Origin: Torpedo marmorata
Lineage: Eukaryota
Direction: 5' to 3'
DNA: 64,000 nt
Assembly (NCBI GenBank): GCA_977017645.1
Contig: OZ360246.1
Coordinates: forward strand, 27,280,001 to 27,344,000
Shown here one piece after another: positions 3,452 through 59,938 of this stretch. Each line of letters opens with the position of its first letter. The stretch's first letter is position 1. The notes beneath the pieces were generated by a model that did not search any database, was not told the DNA's origin, and worked only from the letters and a program-made list of their open reading frames with translations. Both the position numbers and the translations under genes were made by a program.

Positions 3452-3862
3452 AGAACAGAGAACATTACAGCACAGTACAGGCCCTTCAGCCCCACCATGT
3501 TGTGCCGACCTATGTGAACCTTCCAGAAGCACAAACAAGTTGGGCCGAAGGCTCTGTTCTTTCTCCGGCACAAGACCATAAAACATCTGTACAATGTGAG
3601 GGGAGGAAGGTTTAGGGGAGACATCAGTTGTAAGTTGTTCTTTTTTTTTTTTTACACAGAGAGTTGTGGCTGCCTGGAATGTGGTGGTGGTGGAGGCTGG
3701 AACATTCGGGGCATTTAAGAGACTCTTAGACAGGAACATGGATGAAAGAAAAATAGAGGGTTATGAGATAGGAAGGGTTTAGTTTTTTTTTGGTAGGAAT
3801 ATATGGATTGGCACAACATTGAGGGCTGAAGGGCCTGTACTGTGCTGCAGTGTTCTATGTTA
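3452..3862. mobile_element. Two CR1-type LINE 3' ends in opposite orientation
   Basis: The CR1-like tail ggcacaacat..gggctgaagggcctgtactgtgctg..tgttct is on - at ~3452-3511 and on + at ~3806-3862. The + copy is preceded by the ORF2 3' remnant (acacagagagttgtggctgcctggaat...). Confidence 0.75.
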
Positions 3863-9160: not shown

Positions 9161-10086
9161 ATATTGTTACATATCTGCTCCCAAGATAAGGTCTTCCAGT
9201 CCAGATTATCTAAGATGTTCATCTTCGATTCCCCACCACCACCATCAACTCAGCCCTTACCTGCATCTCCTCCATTTTCCGCTCATCTGCCCTGGCCCCC
9301 TCTGCCCCGAGGCTGCAAAAACAGGATTCCTCTTGCCCTCACGTACCACCCCACCAGCTTCTGCATCCAACATATTATCCTCCACAATTTCTGTCACCTA
9401 CAACATGATCCTACACCAGACACATCTTCCCCTCTCCTCCCCTCTCCGCTTTCTGCAGGGACCACTCTCTCCATGACTCCCTCGACCACTCATCCCTCCC
9501 CACCAATTCCACCCCCCACCACCGGCACCTTCCCCTGTGGCCGCAGGAAGTGCCACATTTGCGCCCACACCCAATGGCCAACCACTTCAATTTTGCGCCC
9601 CACTCCCGCACTGACATGTCTGTCCATGGCCTCATGCACTGCCAAACCAAGGCCACTCGTAAATTGGAGGAGCAACACCTAATATTCCATCTGGGCACTC
9701 TCCAACTGGATGGCATTAACATCGACTTCTCTGGTTTCTGCTCGTCTACTCCCCGTTCTCCCTCTTCCTCATCCCTCTGTCTTCTTTCCTCCAGCTCTCT
9801 ACCCCCTTCCCTCTCCATTCGCAGAGTCATCCCTCCTCCCCCTGCTTGCTGGTGTTCCCTCCCTCCCTTATCCACCTATTACCTACTCCCTATGGGACTG
9901 TGCTCCTCCCCCTGCCCCTCCCGCCCCCTCCCCCCACCATTATGTTTGGCCACTTGCCTACGTTTTGCTCATACCTTGATGAAGGGCTCAAGTCCAAGAT
10001 GTTGGTCATGTATCTTTATCTTTGCTACATAATGTACACTGTTTGACTTGCTGAGTTTTTCCAGCATTGTGCTTTTACTTTTATAT
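9161..10086 (+). mobile_element. 5'-truncated, internally deleted Penelope-like retroelement (GIY-YIG region plus terminal repeat)
   Basis: Translations RIPLALTYHPT...ILHNFCHLQHDP and ANHFN..HS.TDMSVHGL..CQ..ATRKLEEQHLIFHLGTLQ.DGINIDFS are typical of PLE linker and GIY-YIG C-terminus. Flanked by an 11-bp direct repeat CAATATTCTCA (9150-9160 and 10087-10097). Confidence 0.85.
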
Positions 10087-15339: not shown

Positions 15340-15910
15340 CCTTGCTGTTCTGTACAGGGCTCAGGAGCACAGAACAGGGATCAGGAGCAGGAACGGAGTC
15401 CAGGAACATAGGATCGGGAAGAGGGATCAGAAACAGGGTCCAAGAACACAGCACAAGTACAGGGATGAGGAATAGGATTATAAACAGGGGTCAGGAACAG
15501 GGCCAAGGAATATTGGACGAGCCAAGGGATCAGGAATAGGATTATAAACAGGGGTCAGGTATAGGGTCCAAGAACACAGGACAACTCAGAGATTAGGAAC
15601 AGGGACAGGTTCCAGGAACACAGGACGAGTCAAGGGATCAGGAACAGGATAAGAAACAGGAACAGGGTCCAGGAACATAGGACACCATAGGGATCAAGAA
15701 CAGGCTCCAAAAACACAGTACAGGCATGTGGATCAGGAACAGGAATAGAAACAGGGAACAGGAACAGGGTTCAGGAATAGTATAAGCCAAGGGATCAGGA
15801 ACAGGAATCTGGAACAAGGATCTGGAACAGGATTATAAACAGGGATCAGGAACAGTTTGCAACAACACAGGACACCACAGGGATAGGAACAGGGATCAGG
15901 AAGAGGGCAC
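15340..15910. repeat. Degenerate purine-rich minisatellite built on a ~12-nt (CAGGAACAGGGA/T) unit
   Basis: Dozens of caggaacagg, gggatcagga and attataaacagg variants. Strong A/G bias on the + strand. Confidence 0.85.
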
Positions 15911-25994: not shown

Positions 25995-26205
25995 GTAAAA
26001 ACACAATGCTGGAGAAACTCAGCAGGTCAAACAGTGTACTTTCTATTGCAAAGATACATAACCAACGTTTGGGGCTTGAGCCTTTCAAGGTATGAAGGTA
26101 CCTTGATGAAAGGCTCTTTATCTTTGCTACATAAAGTACACTGTTTGACCTGCTGAGTTTCTCCAGCATTGTGTTTTTACTTCAATCACGGCGTCTGCAG
26201 ACTGC
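25995..26205. mobile_element. Palindromic Penelope pLTR-derived insertion
   Basis: gtaaaaacacaatgctggagaaactcagcaggtcaaacagtgtactt has its exact reverse complement at ~26134-26180. Confidence 0.8.
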
Positions 26206-26429: not shown

Positions 26430-26790
26430 GATTAAGCCCCGCCTCATGAGGTCTTTGTTGATCGCGTGTCAATCACAGCGACGAGCCCCGCCCCTGTGGT
26501 CCTCACGCTGTCCCAGGCAGCGCGAGCCGGCGTCCCTGCGGTGCCGTCACTTCCAACAGGCGAGCGGGCGGTGCTGACCACGGGGCGGTGATGAGGATGC
26601 GTCCACTTCAAGAATGGAGACCCTGAAAGTGAAGGACCGGATCCTGGAGAACATCTCGCTGTCGGTGAGGCAGGTGAGAGGCCAGGGCGGAATCTTTGAC
26701 AGTCAGGGCCGGGTGGCACGGTGCCCGCTTCTGCTGGTGAGGCCGAGGTGCCACAGCCTGACAAAGATCTGTGCAGAATACGGAGCCGGT
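26430..26790 (+). promoter_or_regulatory. CpG island / PLEKHM2 promoter
   Basis: Sharp GC and CpG rise around exon 1. GC boxes gccccgcc (~26436, ~26485) and ggggcgg (~26582). ETS/CRE-like composite cgtcacttcc (~26545). No TATA box. Confidence 0.8.
26614..26673 (+). CDS. PLEKHM2: PLEKHM2 (SKIP) coding exon 1
   Basis: agaATGg Kozak context; METLKVKDRILENISLSVRQ then GTGAG donor. The human N-terminus is MEPGEVKDRILENISLSVKK. Confidence 0.95.
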
Positions 26791-27019: not shown

Positions 27020-27260
27020 GAAGTAAAACATGACAGTCTGCAGACACTGAAGTAAAAACACAATGTTGGAGAACTCAGCAGGTCAAATAGTGTACTTTAT
27101 ATAGCAAAGATAAAGATACATAACCAATGTTTTGGGCTTGAATCCTTCATCAAGGTGTGAAGGGCTCAAGCCTGAAACATTGGTTATGTATTGTTATCTT
27201 TGCTCAATAAAGTACACAGTTTGACCTGCTGAGTTTCTCCAGCATTGAGTTTTTATTACA
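27020..27260. mobile_element. Palindromic Penelope pLTR-derived insertion
   Basis: ~100-bp inverted arms centred near 27155. Each arm carries the gaagggctcaagcc.gaaac motif. Confidence 0.8.
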
Positions 27261-27559
27261 AAATATTGCTGTAAATGCTTTATAAATTATAAAATGGTTC
27301 TCAGTAGTTAGAGTGCTCAGAATTTAATAAAAAAATTGCTGCAAACGTTCAGCAGGACAGTCAACATCTGTGGAGAAAAAAACTTTCAAATTTTCAGTCA
27401 GTGACAGCATTGGCAGCTACATGCCAAGAGGCTATTTTGTCAAAATCAGGGGACATATCTTCAGAATTATGGGTTGCCTGTTTAAGACTGAAGAATTTCT
27501 TCTCTCAGAGGGGTTATCAAACTGGAATTTTCTACCTCTGAGGTGAAATCATCAGAGAT

Positions 27560-36489: not shown

Positions 36490-37435
36490 GAGTGGAGAGG
36501 TTCAAGTTCTTGTGAGTTCACATCAGAGGATCTCTCCTGGAGCCAGCACATCGAGGCCACTGTGAAGAACTCCTCTATTTTTCAAGAAGTCTGAGAAGAA
36601 TTAGCATATCATCGGATGACGGCCTGGTTTGGAAACACGATACCGAGGAATGCAGAAGGCTGCAGGAAGTGGCAAACCTAGCCAAGTCCATAGTAAAAAT
36701 GTAGACAGGCGCCCTCCCCCCCCACCCCCCCCAACCGTTTTGATCAGGCGCCTGCCTACGTTTTGCTCATACCTTGATGAAGGGCTCAATCCTGAAACAT
36801 TGGTTTTTATCTTTGCTATATAAGGTACACTGTTTGACCTGCTGAGTTTCTCCTGCATTGTGTTTTGACTTCAATCTCGGTGTCTGCAGACTTTTGTGTT
36901 TTACTCTAGAAATACATTGCACAGGATCTGTAGTTAAACAAGAAAGTGTGCAGATGCTGTGATTTTAGTTTTACAAAATTGCTGGAGAAACTCAGCAAGT
37001 CACACAGCATTCTTTATATAGCAAATCATGGGCACTGACCTCCCGTCCATCAAAATCATCTATATGAGGCGCTGCCTCATGGGCTGCCAATATGAGAAAG
37101 GACCCCCATCGCCCTGGTCACAATCTCCTCTTGCTGATCCCTTCAGGAAGAAGGTACAGAAGCCTGAAGTCCAACACCTTCAGGTTCAAGAAAGTTTTTA
37201 TCCAACAGCTATCAGGCTCTTGAATCTCCCCATACTGTGAAGACCTGAACCATATATTACCCCATGACTACCAAAAATTGAATATTTATTTATCTATCCT
37301 TTGATATTTAACATCTCTTTTTCTATCTTGCATTTGTGGTAATTAACTCTTGTAGCTGGTATATCTTGCATACCTGTTTGCTGCAGCAAGTAAGGATTTC
37401 AGTGCATCTGTATGTGTGTATATTTCAATAAACTC
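36490..37435 (+). mobile_element. Rex1-like LINE fragment interrupted by pLTR pieces (~36692-37024)
   Basis: VERFKFL.VHI.EDLSWSQH...AKSI resumes after the insert as MGTDLPSIKIIYMRRCL...SFYPTAIRLLN. Confidence 0.7.
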
Positions 37436-38144
37436 AAATTGGGTATTGAACATACTACTTTGAGGGAGGAATGTTTCTCACCTTTTAATAGTTTGAATCG
37501 TCAGCTGTGCTGAATGACTTCCAGAAATGCAGCAATTGAAGAACAACTCAAAACTTAAATGGCAATGTTCTCTGAACAGATGAACCTGTTCTTCGTAAGG
37601 TGGAACTTGTCATTAATACTGTGCATTTAAAAAAATAAAAAAAAAAAATTATCCGTTCAATTGGAGTAAGAAAGGTGTACAAGCAAAAAACACTTCCTCA
37701 CTATAGTTTAATCATTTAGAATTCAATTAAATTTGATTTGACACAAAAAATTCAGTGGATCGTGAGCAAGAGAATGCTGATTCTACAGCATTTGTATAAC
37801 TAGATGACTCTTCTCAAGCAATCATTTGGGATCCAGTACGGTTTCTGTCTACTCAGACATAATATATACCATCCATGAAATGCACACTAAAGCTCCTGTG
37901 GTACCTGTAAGAGTCGGTACCTCTACCATCTAGAAGAACTTGGGCAGTAATTGCATGAGGGAAAACCACTGTTTCCATGGCATAAACAATCCTGACAGAA
38001 ATGTCTTGCACTCTGTTGCTGGGTCAAAACCTTGGACTTTCCTACCTAATCATAGTGCGAGTGCAACTTCCCAATGTATATTTACCACCCCACCCCCCAA
38101 ACAAGAAACATCTGAACAATTGTGAATGATCACTAATTGGTGGT

Positions 38145-38706
38145 AAAAAACACAAATGCTGGAGAACTCAGCAGGTCAAACAGTGTCTTTTATGTAGCAA
38201 AGGTAGAAATACATAACTGACGTTTCAGGCTTGAGCCCTTCTTCAAAGTATGAGAAAATGCCGGCAGACGTCCGAACAAAGGAGTGAGGGGGGAAGGGTG
38301 GGTGGGAAAGGCAGAAGATAATAGGTGGAGACAGGAGGGAGGGGACAGTAGCAAAGAGGGGGAGGAGGGATGGCTGGGTAGCTGGAGAAACACAGGAAGG
38401 ACACACCTGTCCTTCCTGTGTTTCTCCAGCTACCCAGCCATCCCTCCTCCCCCTCTTTGCTACTGTCCCCTCCCTCCTGTCTCCACCTATTATCTTCTGC
38501 CTTTCCCACCCACCCTTCCCCCCTCACTCCTTTGTTCGGACGTCTGCCGGCATTTTCTCATACTTTGAAGAAGGGCTCAAGCCTGAAACGTCAGTTATGT
38601 ATTTCTACCTTTGCTACATAAAAGACACTGTTTGACCTGCTGAGTTCTCCAGCATTTGTGTTTTTTACTACATTATTACGGTGTCTACAGATTTTCGTGT
38701 TTACTT
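38145..38706. mobile_element. Young Penelope-derived palindromic insertion
   Basis: Perfect inverted arms 38143-38403 and 38408-38668 with loop CACC. 13-bp TSD ACTAATTGGTGGT (38132-38144 and 38707-38719). Sequence is homologous to the 3' end of the PLE at 9161-10086. Confidence 0.92.
38559..38599 (+). ncRNA. Candidate minimal type I hammerhead ribozyme (PLE-associated)
   Basis: CATACT-[TTGAAGA]-A-GGGC-TCAA-GCCT-[GAAA]C-GTC^AGTTATG. Stem I and stem II are present, with a palindromic ACGT in place of stem III. Departs from the canonical core by C3>U and an extra A. A mirror copy lies on - at 38212-38252. Confidence 0.55.
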
Positions 38707-39577
38707 ACTAATTGGTGGTGGTCTCTCAGTAATACCTATGTCCCATAGCTCCCATTGTCCCATCACTGTTGGCCTGATGATTGCCTATGGCATTGTCACT
38801 TGTATTTCAGCATGTATCTCATCTGGAATTCTCTGGGCAAGACATCTGCAATTCCTTGGCTGAGTCATGTGCATTTTGATTTCCCCACGGTTCCAGCCTT
38901 TGTTACTTCCTAATTCATTGTAGTTTCAAATGGAGACTTGATGAAAGGCCAGTCATATAAAGTAGTTTATAAGGAATATTTGCCGCTCTTTGATTTGGAT
39001 TTGCCTGTGTGGTAAGATTGATGGAGAAACCAATGTGATGATCAGGAGGAGTCACTGAGTTTATTGAGTGGATACTTCTCATGATGTAAGCATCACATGA
39101 TTGTAATTGATTGAAAGAGGCAGTGAGTCACAGACCTTGTGTCAGAATTTGGCAGGATAATTGGGTGATTCACGAAAATGTCTGCCTGGCAGAATTTTCC
39201 GCATTTATGAATGTCAATGTTGCATTGTTTCAAATATGGTTGACTAGAATCTGTTGTGGCTTTGCTGATGATAAGGTTTTCAGATTAAATGAGGCACTCT
39301 TGAATTCAGCAAAAGCCACCAGATTAAATTCCATTGTATATCTGATTTGTGGAAAATTGAACGTGGAGTTGTCAAATAATCATTGCATTTAATTTGTTTA
39401 TTTACAGTTGAAGCAGACATGAGAAAAAACTTAGTCGTGAATTATATTGGGAATGTTTTTAACTTTGTTCCTCATTCCAAGAATGGCACATTTATCCCCA
39501 TTTGCCAGATGTCCTATTCAAATTGTGCCATATTTCTAAATTGAATCAGTCCTGCAATTGTTTTTAAAATATCTGCT

Positions 39578-39657
39578 TCCATTGTCACCATATAGCTGCT
39601 TGTCCATTGTCACCATATAGCTGCTTGTCCATTGTCACCATATAGCTGCTTGTCCAT
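39578..39657. repeat. Perfect tandem repeat, 3.2 x 25 bp
   Basis: (TCCATTGTCACCATATAGCTGCTTG)x3 followed by TCCAT. Confidence 0.97.
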
Positions 39658-39969: not shown

Positions 39970-40076
39970 CTCCAGGGTTACTTTGCTGCCTGTGAAGATG
40001 AAACGCCGTCAATTCGAAACCATGACAAGGTTCTACAAAAGCTATGTGAACACCTGGACCATGCCCTGCTATATGG
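39970..40076 (+). CDS. PLEKHM2: PLEKHM2 exon 2 (RUN domain region)
   Basis: cAG|LQGYFAACEDETPSIRNHDKVLQKLCEHLDHALLYG|GTGAG; 107 nt, phase 0-2. Confidence 0.96.
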
Positions 40077-40440: not shown

Positions 40441-40771
40441 GCAATGCACAAAAGTGCTGGAGAAACTCAGCAGGTCATGCAGCATCTATAGGAAGTAGAG
40501 GGTAACCGATGTTTTGGGCCTGAGCCCTTCGTTAAGACCTGCTGAGTTTCTCCAGCACTTTTGTGTATTAAAAAGGTTCCATTATTATCACGTAATACTA
40601 CATTTAGAATGTAACATACATGAAATTCTTTAACTTTGTCTACCGTTAGGAAGACAGAGTCGCCACTTTGTCCAGCGCCCCTCACAGAAATGCGACCCCT
40701 GGTTTACAAGACCAGTGCTCTAACCATATTGCACTATAATCACAGTGTCTGCAGACTTTCCTATTTAACTC
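40441..40771. mobile_element. Palindromic pLTR insertion containing a nested chimeric SINE
   Basis: Arms cacaaaagtgctggagaaactcagcaggtc / gacctgctgagtttctccagcacttttgtg. 15-bp TSD TAAGGTTATTCTTGA (40426-40440 and 40772-40786). Confidence 0.85.
40570..40726 (-). mobile_element. Chimeric retroposon: tRNA-Thr(UGU) fragment joined to the SINE3 body and tail
   Basis: Reverse complement of 40692-40726 is TGGTTAGAGCACTGGTCTTGTAAACCAGGGGTCGC, the D arm through variable loop of vertebrate tRNA-Thr-TGT as I recall it. It joins the tttctgtgaggggcgctggac body. TSD TATT. Confidence 0.8.
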
Positions 40772-45451: not shown

Positions 45452-48400
45452 GTAAGTGTCAGGTTTTGCTTTAACCAAACAGAGCTTTTAAATCTAATTA
45501 CGAACACCTTCCTCTTACATTAAGTAATATCCTTGAGCACTAAACTGATTTTGATGAGGGTTTGGACCGAATAGATGGTATACGTTAAATTTCTATTAAG
45601 TGCCAGCGTCACTTCTGGGAATACCTGGCCAGTGCTTCAAAATGAAGGCTGTGCATTATGAGAGTAGTCATGCCTGCGATGTCTTTTGTGACAGAATAAG
45701 CCTATTGATACTTGCAATCTCAGCATCTGAGTGGAATAAAATGGCAAGTACATCAAGTGTCAGGAAGCGAGATAAATGAAGGGTTATTGATTTTGATGCT
45801 TTTCCACATGCTGTGCATTTCTATTAAGGGAGTGAGGGATTTCTTTTGATTGTTATTTAGTAAAATCTTCAAAGCAATTATCATTAGCAGAGATAATGTT
45901 TTAATTTCTAACCTGATGATCAGGGAGAAATGCATGTACCACAAAATAATTCTGGAAATAATAGCCAAAATAAATAGAGTTATTCAAAATGTACATATAC
46001 CTTCGCAATGAGGAAATGACTTTATTCTGTCTTTGTCAGCACTCTTCATATAGGGTGTTGTACTGCAGTGGGCCTTTTTATGAATTCATAACATTTGCAT
46101 TGTTCAATGGCCAGATTGTGTATGTTCTCTGGGACCTATGTGGTTTAGCACATTCAGTTTGCATAGTTGTGGATTTGCAATAGGCTAATGGAAGATAGTT
46201 CACCAGAGGCATAGGTTCTAACATATCTCCCATGCTGTTTACAACAGTAACTTGCATCCATATTCTGGTATCATTCTCTAGTTTTCAATGATGGATAGAA
46301 GTCGCTTGTGAAAGTTGGGGAGAGTTACGCCTTGTTTGGTGTGCTTGAACTATATGATTTTGTTACAAGTACGAACAAATGGTAAATGTAAATTTGTCTC
46401 AATTTCTGTGAGCACTCTTTGAAATTAGTGTGCTTACTGAGTGTTCTAAAGAACAGTAACTAAACATTGGATCCACATTGTAACTAGGAATACAAGGAGC
46501 TGTCAAATGCTGTGCTGTCCTTGGCACAAGTCAAGTGTGTGAAAGCTGGACTATCATATTGCCCATTCACCATCAGCTGGTGACACCTGTACCTGTGCCA
46601 TGATGGGACCCAACAATCAATTTATTAAGCTGCAGACAAAACCCTTATTTTGTTTTTCTGCCTTCTGTGCAGTCCATGCCATGCATATCATGAACTCTGA
46701 ATCTTTTCAAGTTAAGGTTCATTTTTTACTGTATGTCAAGAAATCCACCTCCATAAAATGGGTGCAGCACTACCATCACAAGAATGCTTCAGACACATCA
46801 ACTACAGTACCTTGATCCAGAGTATGCCAGTGGCACACTTTGACATATCGCTGCAACCTGTGGAAATTTCATCACGTAGAACCTTAACCTTATGAAGCAG
46901 GCTTGGAAGGCTAAGTATTGGGGTAGAGAAATTTATTATTGAATCAACAGGATTTCTTGATCTTTCTAATGCTTTCAGCAGTCAACTTTGTATATCCTGA
47001 CATTTGATGTATGTGCTATAATTTCATCAAAAGGACAATAATTTCTAATGTGGAACAATTCCTCATCTTGTTTTGGACATTTGCTGGTGCTTCGTCAAAA
47101 CCTTAGTCTTGGCCAGTTGCACTGCAGCAATTAACCAACATCTTGCCAGTGGCATTAAGGAAAGGAATTAAATGCTGGCCTTGTCTGCAATGTCCTTTCC
47201 GGATAAAAATAAACTAAGATTTTAGTGCAGTGAAGTATCATGCTGAGGAAGGTTCATATTCGACACTATCACCAGCAAAATCATGGTGTTGGCCAGTGGT
47301 TCTGGCTGTGTCTCTAAGTGACAACCTACACACTTGCAGCAACATCTAAAACACTCACTCCCACAAATGTGCAAAGGGAACATCCTATACATCATAACCT
47401 ACCCTAAATTCTAAGAAAAGACTTTGTCTCGCTAGGCACTGCAGCTGATACCATGATATTAATGTAGCATTAGTAAGAAGTTTTTTTTTTTGTGTTGCAT
47501 TTGATCTCTGTCGTTTCTAACCTATTAAAAGGAAAGGATTTAGCATATCAGAGGGGAATGCGGATGTAATGAATTGAAAGGGAATATAACAAATCAATAA
47601 TTTGAACAGATAAAGGTAAGTCATAATCAGTTGATGAAGATTGCAAGAGAACTGATTTAAAAAAAATATATATTGAAACCATGCTTTAATTGTGGAAATC
47701 CATAATGGATGTTAATGACACTGTAAATTAAAGAAGACACCGAGGAAGATGAAGGAACCCACTGGCACACGGGATGGAGACATCGATTTATCGTTATACG
47801 TTGTGTGGATTGCGTCCAGCCTGCAGTTGAAATGATCTACACCACTTGCACCAAATATCTCTTAATTCTACAAACTCCTTAAGATTGAATTTATCTACCA
47901 AACGCTAACTTACTAAATGGGAAAATAAAGCCATGAAATGGCATATCATCCCATTGCCAATCTCTGTATAGTGTGAACATTTTTACATTTGTTCCTGCAG
48001 TGCGTTGGAGGGACAGCAATTTTACAGGGCCACGTGCAGGTATGTACCATCTTCTCTGAGAAGAGACAGAATATTTCCCTATCACCTTGGAGATGCAGAT
48101 CAGACTTTTGCCTGTCAACATCACAAATACCGGTATATAGAATCCAATGATTTGGCTACTGAATCCTTTCCTTTCTTTACAAAAATGCAGAATAAATTAT
48201 TAGGACTTGGATTTCTCAGGTCAGGAGAATTGATGTCAAAGAAACAAAGACTTTATGATGCTGTGATACCAGTAAAACTAAGATTCAACATAAAAGTGAA
48301 GATGAACATTGTGATAAAAGTAAAAACACCATGCTGGAGAAACTCAGCAGGTCAAACAGTGTACTTTCTATAGTAAAGAAAAATATACATCACCAACATT

Positions 48401-50012
48401 TCGGGCTATTGTGATTTTTATCTTCAAAATAAGATGGTCTGAATAGAGTCCTCATTGTGGTAACAGTGATGCCAGTGCATTGAATAGCCTTTCAACATAT
48501 TTCTTTGAAAATATGATGGGTGGGAAATACGAAATTGAAAAGCCTTGACTTGAGCTTTAACCGAACCCTCAACCATCGGAACAGTTGTGAAGATGACACC
48601 AAATGTTTGAGTTTGGTTTAAAAATAGCAGTAAATAGTGGGTTTGTTGGGGGAAACTGGATTGCCGAGATAATACGAGTTGTTGCTTTTCAAACAGATTT
48701 TATCACATTGATAGATGGAAGATAGTTCTCAGTCATATTATGCTGTTTCATGTTCTGACCCTTGTGTTATTTACACAGTCATCTAATGTCTCCCTCAAAG
48801 AATGAATTCCTTCTATATTAGGATCTTTCATATTAGAGTTCCCACACTGAGTAAATAGATATGAGAATAGAGATCAAGATCTAATGAGAACTTTTTAATT
48901 GTTGCTTCATTAAGGAGATCTGTGTAATACTGCAGCTGTTATTTTATCCTTGATATAATACCATGCTTGTATCTGGCCTGTGTGCGTGTGAGGGACTGAA
49001 GGTAGTGTACCTGTGGAGCTTCCTGCTATTGTGAGTTAACAGTTTTAGAATTCGGATCAAACATTACAGGATGGATTAATTCCAATGATTTTCAAACTAC
49101 TTTGCACTGTCCCAAGACTTTGAGGTGCTGTTTGAAGCTTTTGTCAAAAGTGCATGTGTACTTGAGCCACTGTACATGTGGTAACCGTGCATTTTACATT
49201 TCAGATATTTTGTTTTAAATTCATGGGATTTTGTCATTGTGAGCCAGGGCTCAAATTTCCATTGAGAAGTTTTTATGTAGGTACTTCCGCTGATCTTTTT
49301 GGAGTTTCAGCATTTTAGCACGCCAGAATGTAGCATATGAACTATTAGGTTGAAGATTGTAGTTAACTAAACTAAGCTCAATTACATTATTTATCACAAG
49401 CACAAAGTATATTGGACCTACGTCAACCAGTAGTTGCTCTCTGATTTTTTTTTTCCAAGTGTTTAGTTTAAAGGGGAATTTGTGTATGTATTAAGTGCTC
49501 AAACCTCTGATCTTGCTTTATTCTAGTGAGTTCTGCACTATTCAAGATAAAATATTAAGTGATACGAATGGCGCTTTTACTTATTTCAGTACTCTGTATC
49601 ATCAGGTTAGATGTAAAGTAAAAATAGCTTCCATCTGAAACAAAATAACATTTCACTTTTTCAATTTCTGTTTTAAGTGAGATTGTCAGTTAAGGAATAG
49701 TTTTGTAAAAGGATTGGGTTGAGATCAACTAATGGAACTTTCAATTACAAACTTTCAAACCCAAAGTTCTTGGAAATGTAAAAAAAATTGTTCTCTGCTC
49801 TTAAAGGAAAGACAGGTGCTCAGTATTGTAGGTCAACACAATACAGATGGTTGAAGGGCCAGTCTGAATGGATTTATCTGTAGGTGGAGTGAAATTGCCA
49901 AGGATGTTTTTACTTCTGAAATAAGATGGGGATGTCATATTATTTGACGGTGGTTTGTACAGTTACCGATTTTTTTTTTTTTTTTTTTTTCTTTCTCCTC
50001 TTTCAATTATAG

Positions 50013-57850: not shown

Positions 57851-59446
57851 GTAAAGTGCATTGGATTATTTAAATGCTTCTATGTTTACCGGTAATTGGA
57901 AATGTAGCTAATTCATAAAATAGCAAAGAAAATTTAGTTTAATATTTGCCTTAGAATCGTACACCATGAATTAACTTCTGTAACACTGGTCTGGCATAAC
58001 TATAGGTTCCCCTAATTTGTACTTGGAAGTTTGGACATGGAGGTTATGGGAAGTTTTGTGATGCTCTTATTTTTGATCTCCAAACGGGTCATAGTTTACA
58101 TTACACATACTGAAACATTGAATACATTAAAATACAGAATGCAGTCCACCCGATAGTTCCAAAATGTCCTGAATAGTGCTATTTCTTCAAGATTTTTTTT
58201 GTAACCACTTTGAATTGATTCATGCCAGAGTGTCCCATATCTTGACCAACTTTGATTTAATCTGTGCGAAGTGTTCAATTTGTATGTGTGGAGTTGTTTT
58301 GTTCACCTCTGGTTGAGAGAGTAAATCAAGCTACTAATGAGCTGTGATGTTTAAGTAGTGTGCTGGATTAAACGCTGGCCTTGCACTCAAACAAGATTCC
58401 AGAGGTGAATCTCAAACTGATACAATGACAGTTTTCCTATGACTGGATGCCAGCTGATCAAAAGGAAAGTGATGCACTCCTCAAATGTTCCTCAGTGAAG
58501 AACAAAACATAACACCTTTTTTCTTCCAATTGCCTTCCCATGTCTTCTGAAAACACCAACTTCTCCTCTTCGCTGGATTGAGACCATTCTCAACAATGCT
58601 TTTCATTCTTGTCCTAACTGTTTTGATCAAAATTCAGATTTATTATCAGAGTACATACATGACATCACATACAACCCTGAGATTCGATTTCCTGCAAGCC
58701 AGGCAGAATTTCTACTTATCGTAGTGCAAAAGTCTGTACTCAAGAAAAGATGCGTATAAAAAGAGAGAAATGTAAACAAAAAGGAAGTGCAAACTGTGTA
58801 ATACAGAAAACAAATATTCAATAATAAATACAGGCAGTCCCCGGGTTAAAAACGAGTTCCATTACCTAGGTCTGTTTTTAACTCGAATTTGTATTTAAGT
58901 CGGAACGAGTACATTTAGCGTCAGTTAGTCAAATGTTTATCTTAGTATATAGCATATATAGTATATATTTTATGTTTCTATGCATGTAAAACACTTAAGA
59001 AACACTTCCAAATACACTACAACATCTTAAACATAATAATACAGTACATAATTGGATGATGTAGGAGAAGATGGAGAGATGGCGACTGTTGGAGAGGATG
59101 GACCTGGTGCTGGAGAGTCAGGGTTTGATTTTTGCCACGTGAAACTTGGAGGTGGAATCAGCTGCAAAGAAGCATCTTTTCATTTCGAGCTGCCTTTAAC
59201 CCAATGAGGCAGTAAAGAGTCATCAAACTATTGTTTCACGAATCACTTGTAAACCAGACGAAATAAGAGTACAACACGGTTAATACGTTCCAAGCAAGTT
59301 CAGTGCTATGGAAAACCACTGTTCAAAGCATTATTACAATGCACTTTAACGTAATACGATCCAATGCTATAAAAGGGATATATAAAGATCTTTATTGGCA
59401 ATAAGTAACATCGTTTATTTAAGAAAAAATTTGTCTAATGTAGTTC

Positions 59447-59937
59447 ACCCCTAACCCTAATGCGTTGTTCAGTGGTTTGGAAACTCGTTGGTCTAACCCT
59501 AACCCAGGTGTTCCCCTCCATACAAACTGGCATTGTTCAGTGGTTTGGAAACTGGCTGGTCTGCCGCATCAGAGCAGAGACAGAAAAAAACAGATTCCCA
59601 TCAGTGTAAGGCAGCGTGCTGCGGGATAGTGCAGGGAGCCCGATCACAGTGGGGACAGCAATAACTTTCAACACAGCCACTTAACTCTCTCTATTCCACA
59701 GCTCAGTGCCCATACAAACTGGCGTTGTTCAGTGGTTTGGAAACTTGCTGGTCTGCCCCCTAACCCTAATGTGTTGTTCAGTGGTTTGGAAAATCGCTGG
59801 TCTGCCCCTAACCCTAATGCGTTATTCAGTGGTTTGGAAACTCGCTGGTCTGCCCCTAACCATAACTCTAACCCAGGGGTTCCCCTCCATACAAACTGGT
59901 ATTGTTCAGTGGTTTGGAAACTCGCTGGTCTGCCGCA
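59447..59937. repeat. Tandem array of 6 cores (ttgttcagtggtttggaaactcgctggtctg) with CCCTAA telomere-like linkers
   Basis: Six core copies at ~59465, 59533, 59725, 59775, 59822 and 59902, with CCCTAACCCTAA between several of them. Confidence 0.9.
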
Positions 59938-59938
59938 T

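What the first reader, a model, noticed from the sequence alone, without database searches (positions are those of the whole stretch)
38143..38719. Perfect 261-bp-arm palindrome made by a Penelope-like insertion in PLEKHM2 intron 1
Seen: arms 38143-38403 and 38408-38668 are exact reverse complements around a 4-nt loop (CACC). A further ~38 nt of terminal repeat is present on the right side only, and a 13-bp TSD encloses the whole unit. Known: PLE insertions often have inverted partial terminal repeats. Inference: no mismatches between arms means a very recent insertion by fold-back or self-primed second-strand synthesis, or ongoing arm-to-arm conversion. In DNA it is a cruciform or fragile-site candidate. 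In the pre-mRNA it is a 261-bp perfect dsRNA stem, a possible ADAR/Dicer/dsRNA-sensor substrate.
Basis: partly seen in the sequence, partly recalled or inferred. Interest (0 to 1): 0.72.

Follow-up and report, generated by a model that had tools for sequence, protein, structure and literature searches.

The report
Young head-to-head Penelope retroelement insertion
This perfect DNA palindrome is a very recent, cut-short insertion of a Penelope-like jumping gene in a shape already described for that group, probably one of hundreds in this genome, and its sister copies suggest it was likely made by copying the element's RNA onto both ends of one DNA cut and then closing the middle with a hairpin-like turn.

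Summary
Observation confirmed: exact 261-bp arms, 4-nt loop, one-sided 38-nt tail, 13-bp target-site duplication (TSD), in PLEKHM2 intron 1. Contigs of two related organisms carry the empty site with one TSD copy. The arms are the 3' end of an abundant, very young Neptune-type Penelope-like element (RT plus C-terminal GIY-YIG; 6,460 exact 27-mer hits). The shape is published for this class.

Youth explains the perfect arms: 43 of 163 sampled loci hold the same arm letter for letter, and older pairs diverge independently (150 private vs 7 shared changes), so there is no sign of general arm-to-arm conversion. All 51 clean head-to-head pairs have one tailed and one tail-less arm, TSD mode 14. The tail-less arm is longer in 21 of 28 lopsided pairs, which single-primer fold-back cannot give. 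Near-symmetric centres like this one are enriched (7 of 26 vs 0.5 expected).

Best model (inferred): both ends of a 14-nt staggered cut prime reverse transcription at two RNA sites about 39 nt apart, and a snap-back or near-register switch closes the centre. Raw reads across the filled allele and any RNA effect are untested. The scan reported the two-ended form before, in this and other genomes.

The parts
38132..38144 (.). Left copy of the 13-bp target-site duplication; its last 2 nt also match the element's 3' end (microhomology)
   Evidence: single copy in empty-site contigs
38145..38403 (-). Inverted, tail-less arm: 259 nt of the element's 3' terminal repeat (pLTR), ending at the inner start site (unit position about 3808)
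38404..38407 (+). 4-nt loop; it is the element's own sequence and belongs to the tailed arm; no microhomology at the turn
   Evidence: other copies read the same 4 nt before the arm
38408..38668 (+). Sense arm of the pLTR, identical letter for letter (259 nt) in 43 of 163 other sampled loci
38558..38600 (+). Minimal hammerhead-like motif of the pLTR (mirror copy at 38211-38253, minus strand); core has U at position 3 in the commonest family versions, and G-U instead of G-C at the base of stem II in the youngest subfamily. Read by eye against PMC4209133; activity untested
   Evidence: 195 arms tallied; no Rfam hammerhead hit; MFE fold does not form it
38669..38706 (+). One-sided 38-nt 'tail', ending at the outer start site (unit position 3848); in full-length copies it runs on into the element body
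38707..38719 (.). Right copy of the 13-bp target-site duplication
26614..26673 (+). Host context: PLEKHM2 first coding exon
   Evidence: located with short recalled motifs; name rests
39970..40076 (+). Host context: PLEKHM2 second coding exon, 1,251 bp downstream of the insertion

Best explanation
This is a very young, 5'-truncated, head-to-head insertion of a Neptune-type Penelope-like retroelement, likely made when both 3' ends of one staggered cut primed reverse transcription on the element's RNA and the middle was closed by a hairpin-like turn. SHOWN: architecture, TSD, empty site in relatives, parent element with RT and C-terminal GIY-YIG, youth, one tailed plus one tail-less arm in every clean pair, TSD mode 14, short target-template matches at both ends, excess of near-symmetric centres. 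INFERRED: (1) the GIY-YIG enzyme, probably a dimer, nicks both strands about 14 nt apart, leaving 3' overhangs; (2) one end primes at the outer RNA site (tailed arm), the other about 39 nt upstream (tail-less arm); (3) both cDNAs stop early; (4) here the tailed cDNA, about 300 nt long, turned back on itself with a 4-nt loop (or jumped to the partner cDNA at almost the same position), and the new sense strand paired with the partner cDNA; (5) gap filling made the TSD. The product is a passive, non-coding intronic insertion. It would form a 261-bp stem in pre-mRNA and could form a DNA hairpin, but no function is implied.
For: 51 of 51 clean pairs (window included) are tailed plus tail-less; 21 of 21 in the part not selected on end type. 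TSD 13-17 bp in 46 of 51, 14 bp in 26. Tail-less arm longer in 21 of 28 pairs offset by more than 20 nt (p = 0.013) and in 6 of 15 near-symmetric pairs with a non-zero offset, including zero-mismatch pairs L042, L044, L119, L169: the tail is absent from the longer arm, so neither arm can be a whole copy of the other. Target 3' ends match the template by 2 nt or more at 19 of 34 tail ends and 9 of 15 unselected tail-less ends, against about 6-7% at random. Centres within 12 nt of symmetry in 7 of 26 long pairs, against 0.51 under permutation (max 5 in 20,000 shuffles). In vitro, an anole PLE protein cleaves and extends both strands, starts at two sites bounding the tail, and is predicted to be a dimer (PMC11167929). 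Parent ORF: RVT_1 E 3e-6 and GIY-YIG E 3.5e-4, both just under Pfam cut-offs, with CX4CxxC linker and CxxC within GIY-YIG.
Against: In this copy the tailed arm owns the loop, so a single-primer fold-back cannot be excluded from this locus alone. End microhomology is also expected if a free end is joined by microhomology-mediated repair. Lopsided centres could be early central deletions of once-symmetric palindromes; the age test is small (4 of 15 young vs 3 of 11 older symmetric, p = 1). Cis snap-back and trans switching give the same sequence. Most sampled loci were not clean pairs (50 of 163), and complex centres were left out. The in vitro data come from a Poseidon-clade, not a Neptune-clade, element. 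No raw reads span the filled allele.
Confidence: 0.65

Rival explanations
1. Single-primer fold-back (self-priming): one cDNA, or an antisense-templated copy, folds back and copies itself; the endonuclease resolves the free end about 39 nt short; lopsided copies arise later by central deletion.
For: Proposed in PMC3846280 from junction palindromes. Near-symmetric centres are enriched. In this copy and in 9 of 15 near-symmetric non-zero pairs the tailed arm owns the loop. Long palindromes are known to be unstable (PMC7999016).
Against: Zero-mismatch pairs already have the tail-less arm longer, by 5-550 nt (L042, L044, L169, L043, L168, L192, L180). Unbiased central deletion would not give 21:7. 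The symmetric share does not fall with age.
Confidence: 0.22
2. The arms are kept identical by ongoing arm-to-arm gene conversion.
For: 7 rare variants are shared by both arms of a pair, in 4 of 51 pairs (L034, L112, L135, L139).
Against: 150 variants are private to one arm against those 7. Near-symmetric pairs L046 and L139 carry 32/1810 and 37/1747 mismatches. The window arm is identical to arms in 43 of 163 other loci, so no homogenisation is needed.
Confidence: 0.04
3. Fold-back chimera from long-read sequencing or assembly.
For: No read or contig spanning the filled allele was available. The two empty-site runs are of relatives, so they do not show the filled allele.
Against: The flanks are distinct and join through one TSD copy in two other organisms. 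The tail is one-sided. Fifty other loci share the TSD and tail rule, and near-symmetric ones with about 2% arm divergence cannot be read fold-backs.
Confidence: 0.03
4. A non-autonomous palindromic mini-element (MITE-like) that moves as a unit.
For: Short palindromes cluster at unit positions 3690-3720 (34 of 123 arm starts in the second sample).
Against: The 22-nt centre of this palindrome occurs once in 6.2 Gb. Centres differ from locus to locus and arm lengths run from about 40 to 3,100 bp.
Confidence: 0.02

Closest known systems
Endonuclease-bearing Penelope-like insertions with inverted pLTR, one-sided tail and TSD, e.g. Pen2a_Av of Adineta vaga (PMC3846280; passages read) and Fig. 2 of PMC8557442 (passages read)
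   Same: Head-to-head inverted 5'-truncated copy, 30-40-bp tail on one end, TSD round the whole unit, palindrome at the junction.
   Different: Here both halves are pLTR-only stubs. The TSD is longer and tighter (mode 14 against 8-10 bp in those examples). The family is large and young enough to count junction types.
PAc (Poseidon of Anolis carolinensis) in vitro (PMC11167929; first two of four parts of the text read)
   Same: Two RT start sites bounding the tail; both target strands cleaved and extended; predicted dimer.
   Different: Poseidon rather than Neptune clade. The parts read do not link two-strand priming to the inverted form or describe the centre junction. AT-rich ATT cut preference was not tested here.
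L1 twin priming (recalled; no paper read)
   Same: Both target 3' ends prime reverse transcription, and the two cDNAs are joined with microhomology.
   Different: In L1 the second primer anneals internally and gives an inversion without duplication. Here both primers start near the 3' end at fixed sites, so the same sequence is laid down twice as a palindrome.
Minimal hammerheads of metazoan PLE pLTRs (PMC4209133; first two of four parts read)
   Same: Position in the pLTR, extra nucleotide before stem II, near-absent stem III.
   Different: U at core position 3 opposite G8, and G10.1-U11.1 in the youngest subfamily. In the palindrome the motif is predicted to be locked in the long stem.

Membership tests
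EN+ Penelope-like elements | Single ORF with RT followed by C-terminal GIY-YIG endonuclease in the parent element | tested here: met
   L045 and L032 ORFs: RVT_1 then GIY-YIG, both slightly below Pfam gathering scores; ORF ends directly upstream of the arm sequence
EN+ Penelope-like elements | CCHH motif with two cysteines between GIY and YIG | tested here: met
   Seen in the translation of L045; definition from PMC8557442
EN+ Penelope-like elements | Partial-tandem pLTRs flanking full-length copies | tested here: met
   L077, L109, L174, L195: truncated 3' piece with tail followed by a whole unit
EN+ Penelope-like elements | Inverted 5'-truncated copy with a 30-40-bp one-sided tail | tested here: met
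   Window and 50 further pairs
EN+ Penelope-like elements | Minimal hammerhead motif in the pLTR | tested here: inconclusive
   Motif recognisable by eye with non-canonical U3 and G-U changes; no Rfam hit; not the MFE fold
EN+ Penelope-like elements | RT grouping with PLE/telomerase RTs in a tree | not tested
   No tree was built
Neptune clade | CX2-5CxxC linker between RT and EN | tested here: met
   CX4CxxC upstream of GIY-YIG; shared with Nematis per PMC8557442
Neptune clade | Phylogenetic placement apart from Nematis | not tested
   Assigned by motif and by Neptune and Poseidon being the widespread vertebrate clades (10.64898/2026.07.22.740005, passages)
MITE / self-mobile palindromic unit | Many copies with the same ends and the same centre | tested here: not met
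   Centre 22-mer unique in the genome; centres vary
Known miRNA precursor | Rfam match at gathering score | tested here: not met
   All hits below gathering scores, driven by the hairpin alone

The most novel reading that the evidence does not exclude
Penelope-like elements integrate by a two-ended reaction: a 14-nt staggered cut, both ends priming at two fixed RNA sites, and in about a quarter of long two-armed cases a snap-back turn on either cDNA. This accounts for the inverted pLTR, the tail and the junction palindrome at once. It has left roughly 300 near-perfect palindromes with arms up to 1.8 kb and loops of 12 nt or less in a vertebrate genome, which persist to 2% divergence without central deletion or conversion.
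Probability: 0.45. Interest if true: 0.62.

Novelty: new member of a known kind. Interest (0 to 1): 0.38.

Why it matters
The locus itself is an ordinary intronic insertion of a known form. Its value is as one of many clean, young junctions. How PLEs make their inverted repeats and tail is described as undefined (PMC8557442), and these junction counts give direct predictions for the existing in vitro system (PMC11167929). The family also offers a natural series of long, near-perfect palindromes of graded age for testing palindrome stability in a vertebrate germ line and the handling of intronic dsRNA.

Tried and rejected
DNA search of the own genome with the 299-nt arm returned nothing because common words are skipped; short exact patterns were used instead. 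A genome-wide count of short-loop palindromes with one gapped pattern could not be run, so the genome-wide number is an extrapolation. No RNA holder listed: not evidence on expression, editing or small RNAs. No contig spans the filled allele: short-read contigs cannot, so it is no evidence either way. Rfam miRNA hits rejected as hairpin artefacts. Arm-to-arm conversion rejected as a general process. Loss of symmetric palindromes with age looked possible in the first sample but was not borne out (4 of 15 vs 3 of 11). The idea that symmetric pairs lack subfamily differences between arms was inconclusive: 8 in 8,481 bp vs 26 in 16,526 bp. Rows dropped before the count of 51: L039 (duplicated centre plus nested older copy), pairs with a centre gap over 20 nt or overlap over 15 nt, and arms not reaching unit position 3780 (e.g. 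L033, L055, L056, L083, L086, L090, L099, L130, L136, L137, L142, L171, L177, L182); a looser filter on the first sample gave 29 pairs. The second sample (80 of 312 hits) was selected on tail-less ends followed by fixed letters, so its tail-less ends were left out of the microhomology test and it cannot show both-tailed pairs. Literature searches for a printed two-ended PLE model listed none, judged from titles and abstracts plus the passages read. Older subscription papers (Arkhipova 2006; Evgen'ev and Arkhipova 2005; Pyatkov 2004) and all supplements were not seen and may contain it.

Full report
Observation. The window holds an exact 261-bp inverted repeat (38143-38403, 38408-38668) round CACC, a right-only 38-nt extension (38669-38706) and a 13-bp direct repeat at 38132-38144 and 38707-38719. 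As RNA it folds at -567.5 kcal/mol, z = -50. It lies between coding exons at 26614-26673 and 39970-40076; the second matches PLEKHM2 in the PDB at E 1.3e-17. Contigs from two other organisms join the two flanks through one copy of the 13-mer (X1, 617 nt; X4, 365 nt), so it is a true TSD and the insertion is absent in those two samples. No read spanning the filled allele and no RNA run was available.

What it is. A 27-mer of the arm has 6,460 exact matches in the 6.22-Gb genome; two motifs at the 3' end have 10,861 and 2,702. The 22-nt centre is unique. [quoted passage not shown] By PMC8557442 (passages) this marks the Neptune or Nematis clade; no tree was built. Full-length copies have the partial-tandem pLTR form. 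The loop CACC is the element's own sequence, so the tailed arm is 4 nt longer at the centre. The palindrome is two 5'-truncated 3' ends head to head: the form drawn in PMC8557442 Fig. 2 and described for Pen2a_Av in PMC3846280.

Samples. Sample 1: all first 100 listed places, as 83 loci. Sample 2: 80 of the 312 tail-less ends. Clean head-to-head pairs: 20 of 83 and 30 of 80; complex centres were dropped (listed under Tried and rejected). Positions below are on a 3,848-nt reference unit made from L047 and the window arm.

Why the arms are perfect. The 259-nt arm stands letter for letter in 43 of 163 loci and the 299-nt tailed arm in 19. Across 51 pairs, 150 variants are private to one arm and 7 are shared by both arms. 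Arm-to-arm distance tracks the distance to the nearest other locus. Youth is enough, and conversion is at most occasional.

Ends. All 51 pairs have one arm ending at about 3844-3851 and one at about 3805-3811; 21 of these were not selected on end type. TSDs are 13-17 bp in 46 of 51, and 14 in 26. The target's 3' end matches the template by 2 nt or more at 19 of 34 tail ends and 9 of 15 unselected tail-less ends without inserted bases, against 6.7% and 5.7% at random. In the window the tail-less end has a 2-nt match and the tail end none.

Centres. Among 28 pairs offset by more than 20 nt, the tail-less arm is longer in 21 (p = 0.013). A cDNA begun at the inner site lacks the tail, so its fold-back copy cannot supply it; a shorter tailed cDNA cannot supply the extra sequence of the longer arm. 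Two primings are needed unless the centre was deleted later. Many such pairs have no arm mismatches, and the symmetric share does not fall with age (4 of 15 vs 3 of 11, a weak test). Yet centres within 12 nt of symmetry are far more common than independent stops would give: 7 of 26 long pairs against 0.51. In near-symmetric pairs the loop belongs to the tailed arm in 9, to the tail-less arm in 6, and to neither in 5.

Mechanism (inferred). Both strands are nicked about 14 nt apart. Each 3' end primes on the RNA, one at the outer and one at the inner site, in line with two-strand cleavage and extension, two start sites bounding the tail, and a predicted dimer for the anole element (PMC11167929). 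The cDNAs stop early and are joined by short overlaps (1-12 nt in 37 of 51 centres) or by a tight turn. Here the tailed cDNA appears to have turned with a 4-nt loop and no microhomology, the copy pairing with the partner cDNA. Cis and trans turns cannot be told apart by sequence. For this copy alone a single-primer fold-back also fits.

How common. Five near-symmetric pairs with arms of 364-1,828 bp lay among the first 100 of 6,460 matches, which scales to about 320 genome-wide (my arithmetic; roughly 100-750 on Poisson grounds). Inverted Alus with a 12-bp spacer stall forks and break chromosomes in model systems (PMC7999016, passages), so fragility is plausible. But L046 and L139 have lasted to about 2% arm divergence with 10-nt loops. 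Effects on PLEKHM2, RNA editing and small RNAs are untested.

Artefact. Distinct flanks that rejoin in relatives, a one-sided tail, a family-wide TSD rule and diverged symmetric copies argue against read fold-back; spanning long reads remain the direct test.

Novelty. The architecture is in print. The two-ended model for PLEs was not found in searches, though older subscription papers and all supplements were not seen. Earlier scan notes reached the same two-ended reading in this and other genomes. They are unchecked AI notes; my reading was recorded before I saw them and rests on my own counts. What this locus adds is the measured excess of tight-turn centres, owned by either arm, and the absence of general conversion. 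Verdict: real, a new member of a known kind, interest 0.38.

Noticed in passing
window 25995-26203, 27021-27279, 36690-37025, 40443-40569, 9825-10076, 48304-48407: Older, diverged relatives of the same pLTR; four look like short decayed head-to-head palindromes.
   Followed up: partly
L117-L196, unit positions 3690-3720 (window equivalent 38548-38578): 5' truncation hotspot at the upstream edge of the hammerhead-like motif: 34 of 123 arm starts. It is not at the predicted cleavage site; an RT stall at RNA structure or an RNA 5' end are both possible.
   Followed up: partly
L045, L038, L046, L139: Very long palindromes: arms of 3.1 kb (41-nt offset), 1.64 kb (8 nt), 1.83 kb (10 nt), 1.77 kb (10 nt); the last two have about 2% arm divergence with the centre still near-symmetric.
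   Followed up: yes
L142, L145, L086, L039: Short stretches of the element repeated in tandem at the centre or 5' junction (e.g. a 38-nt piece about six times in L142, a 264-nt piece about seven times in L145), suggesting repeated RT template jumps.
   Followed up: no
L051, L112: The two arms differ at 6 and 9 non-CpG sites that also vary among other copies, as if the arms came from two subfamilies.
   Followed up: partly
G000:C1:136116902-136117268: Three minus-strand then two plus-strand copies of the tail motif at 78-101-bp spacing.
   Followed up: no
runs X2, X3 on window 38172-38646: Contigs identical to the arm (0 differences over 87-186 nt) in runs of two other coded organisms that showed no flank; close relative, contamination or transfer not told apart.
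   Followed up: no
window 59426-59938; 39578-39657; 15428-15868: A repeat with CCCTAA telomere-like units interspersed; three perfect 25-bp tandem units just upstream of exon 2; a degenerate purine-rich tandem array.
   Followed up: no
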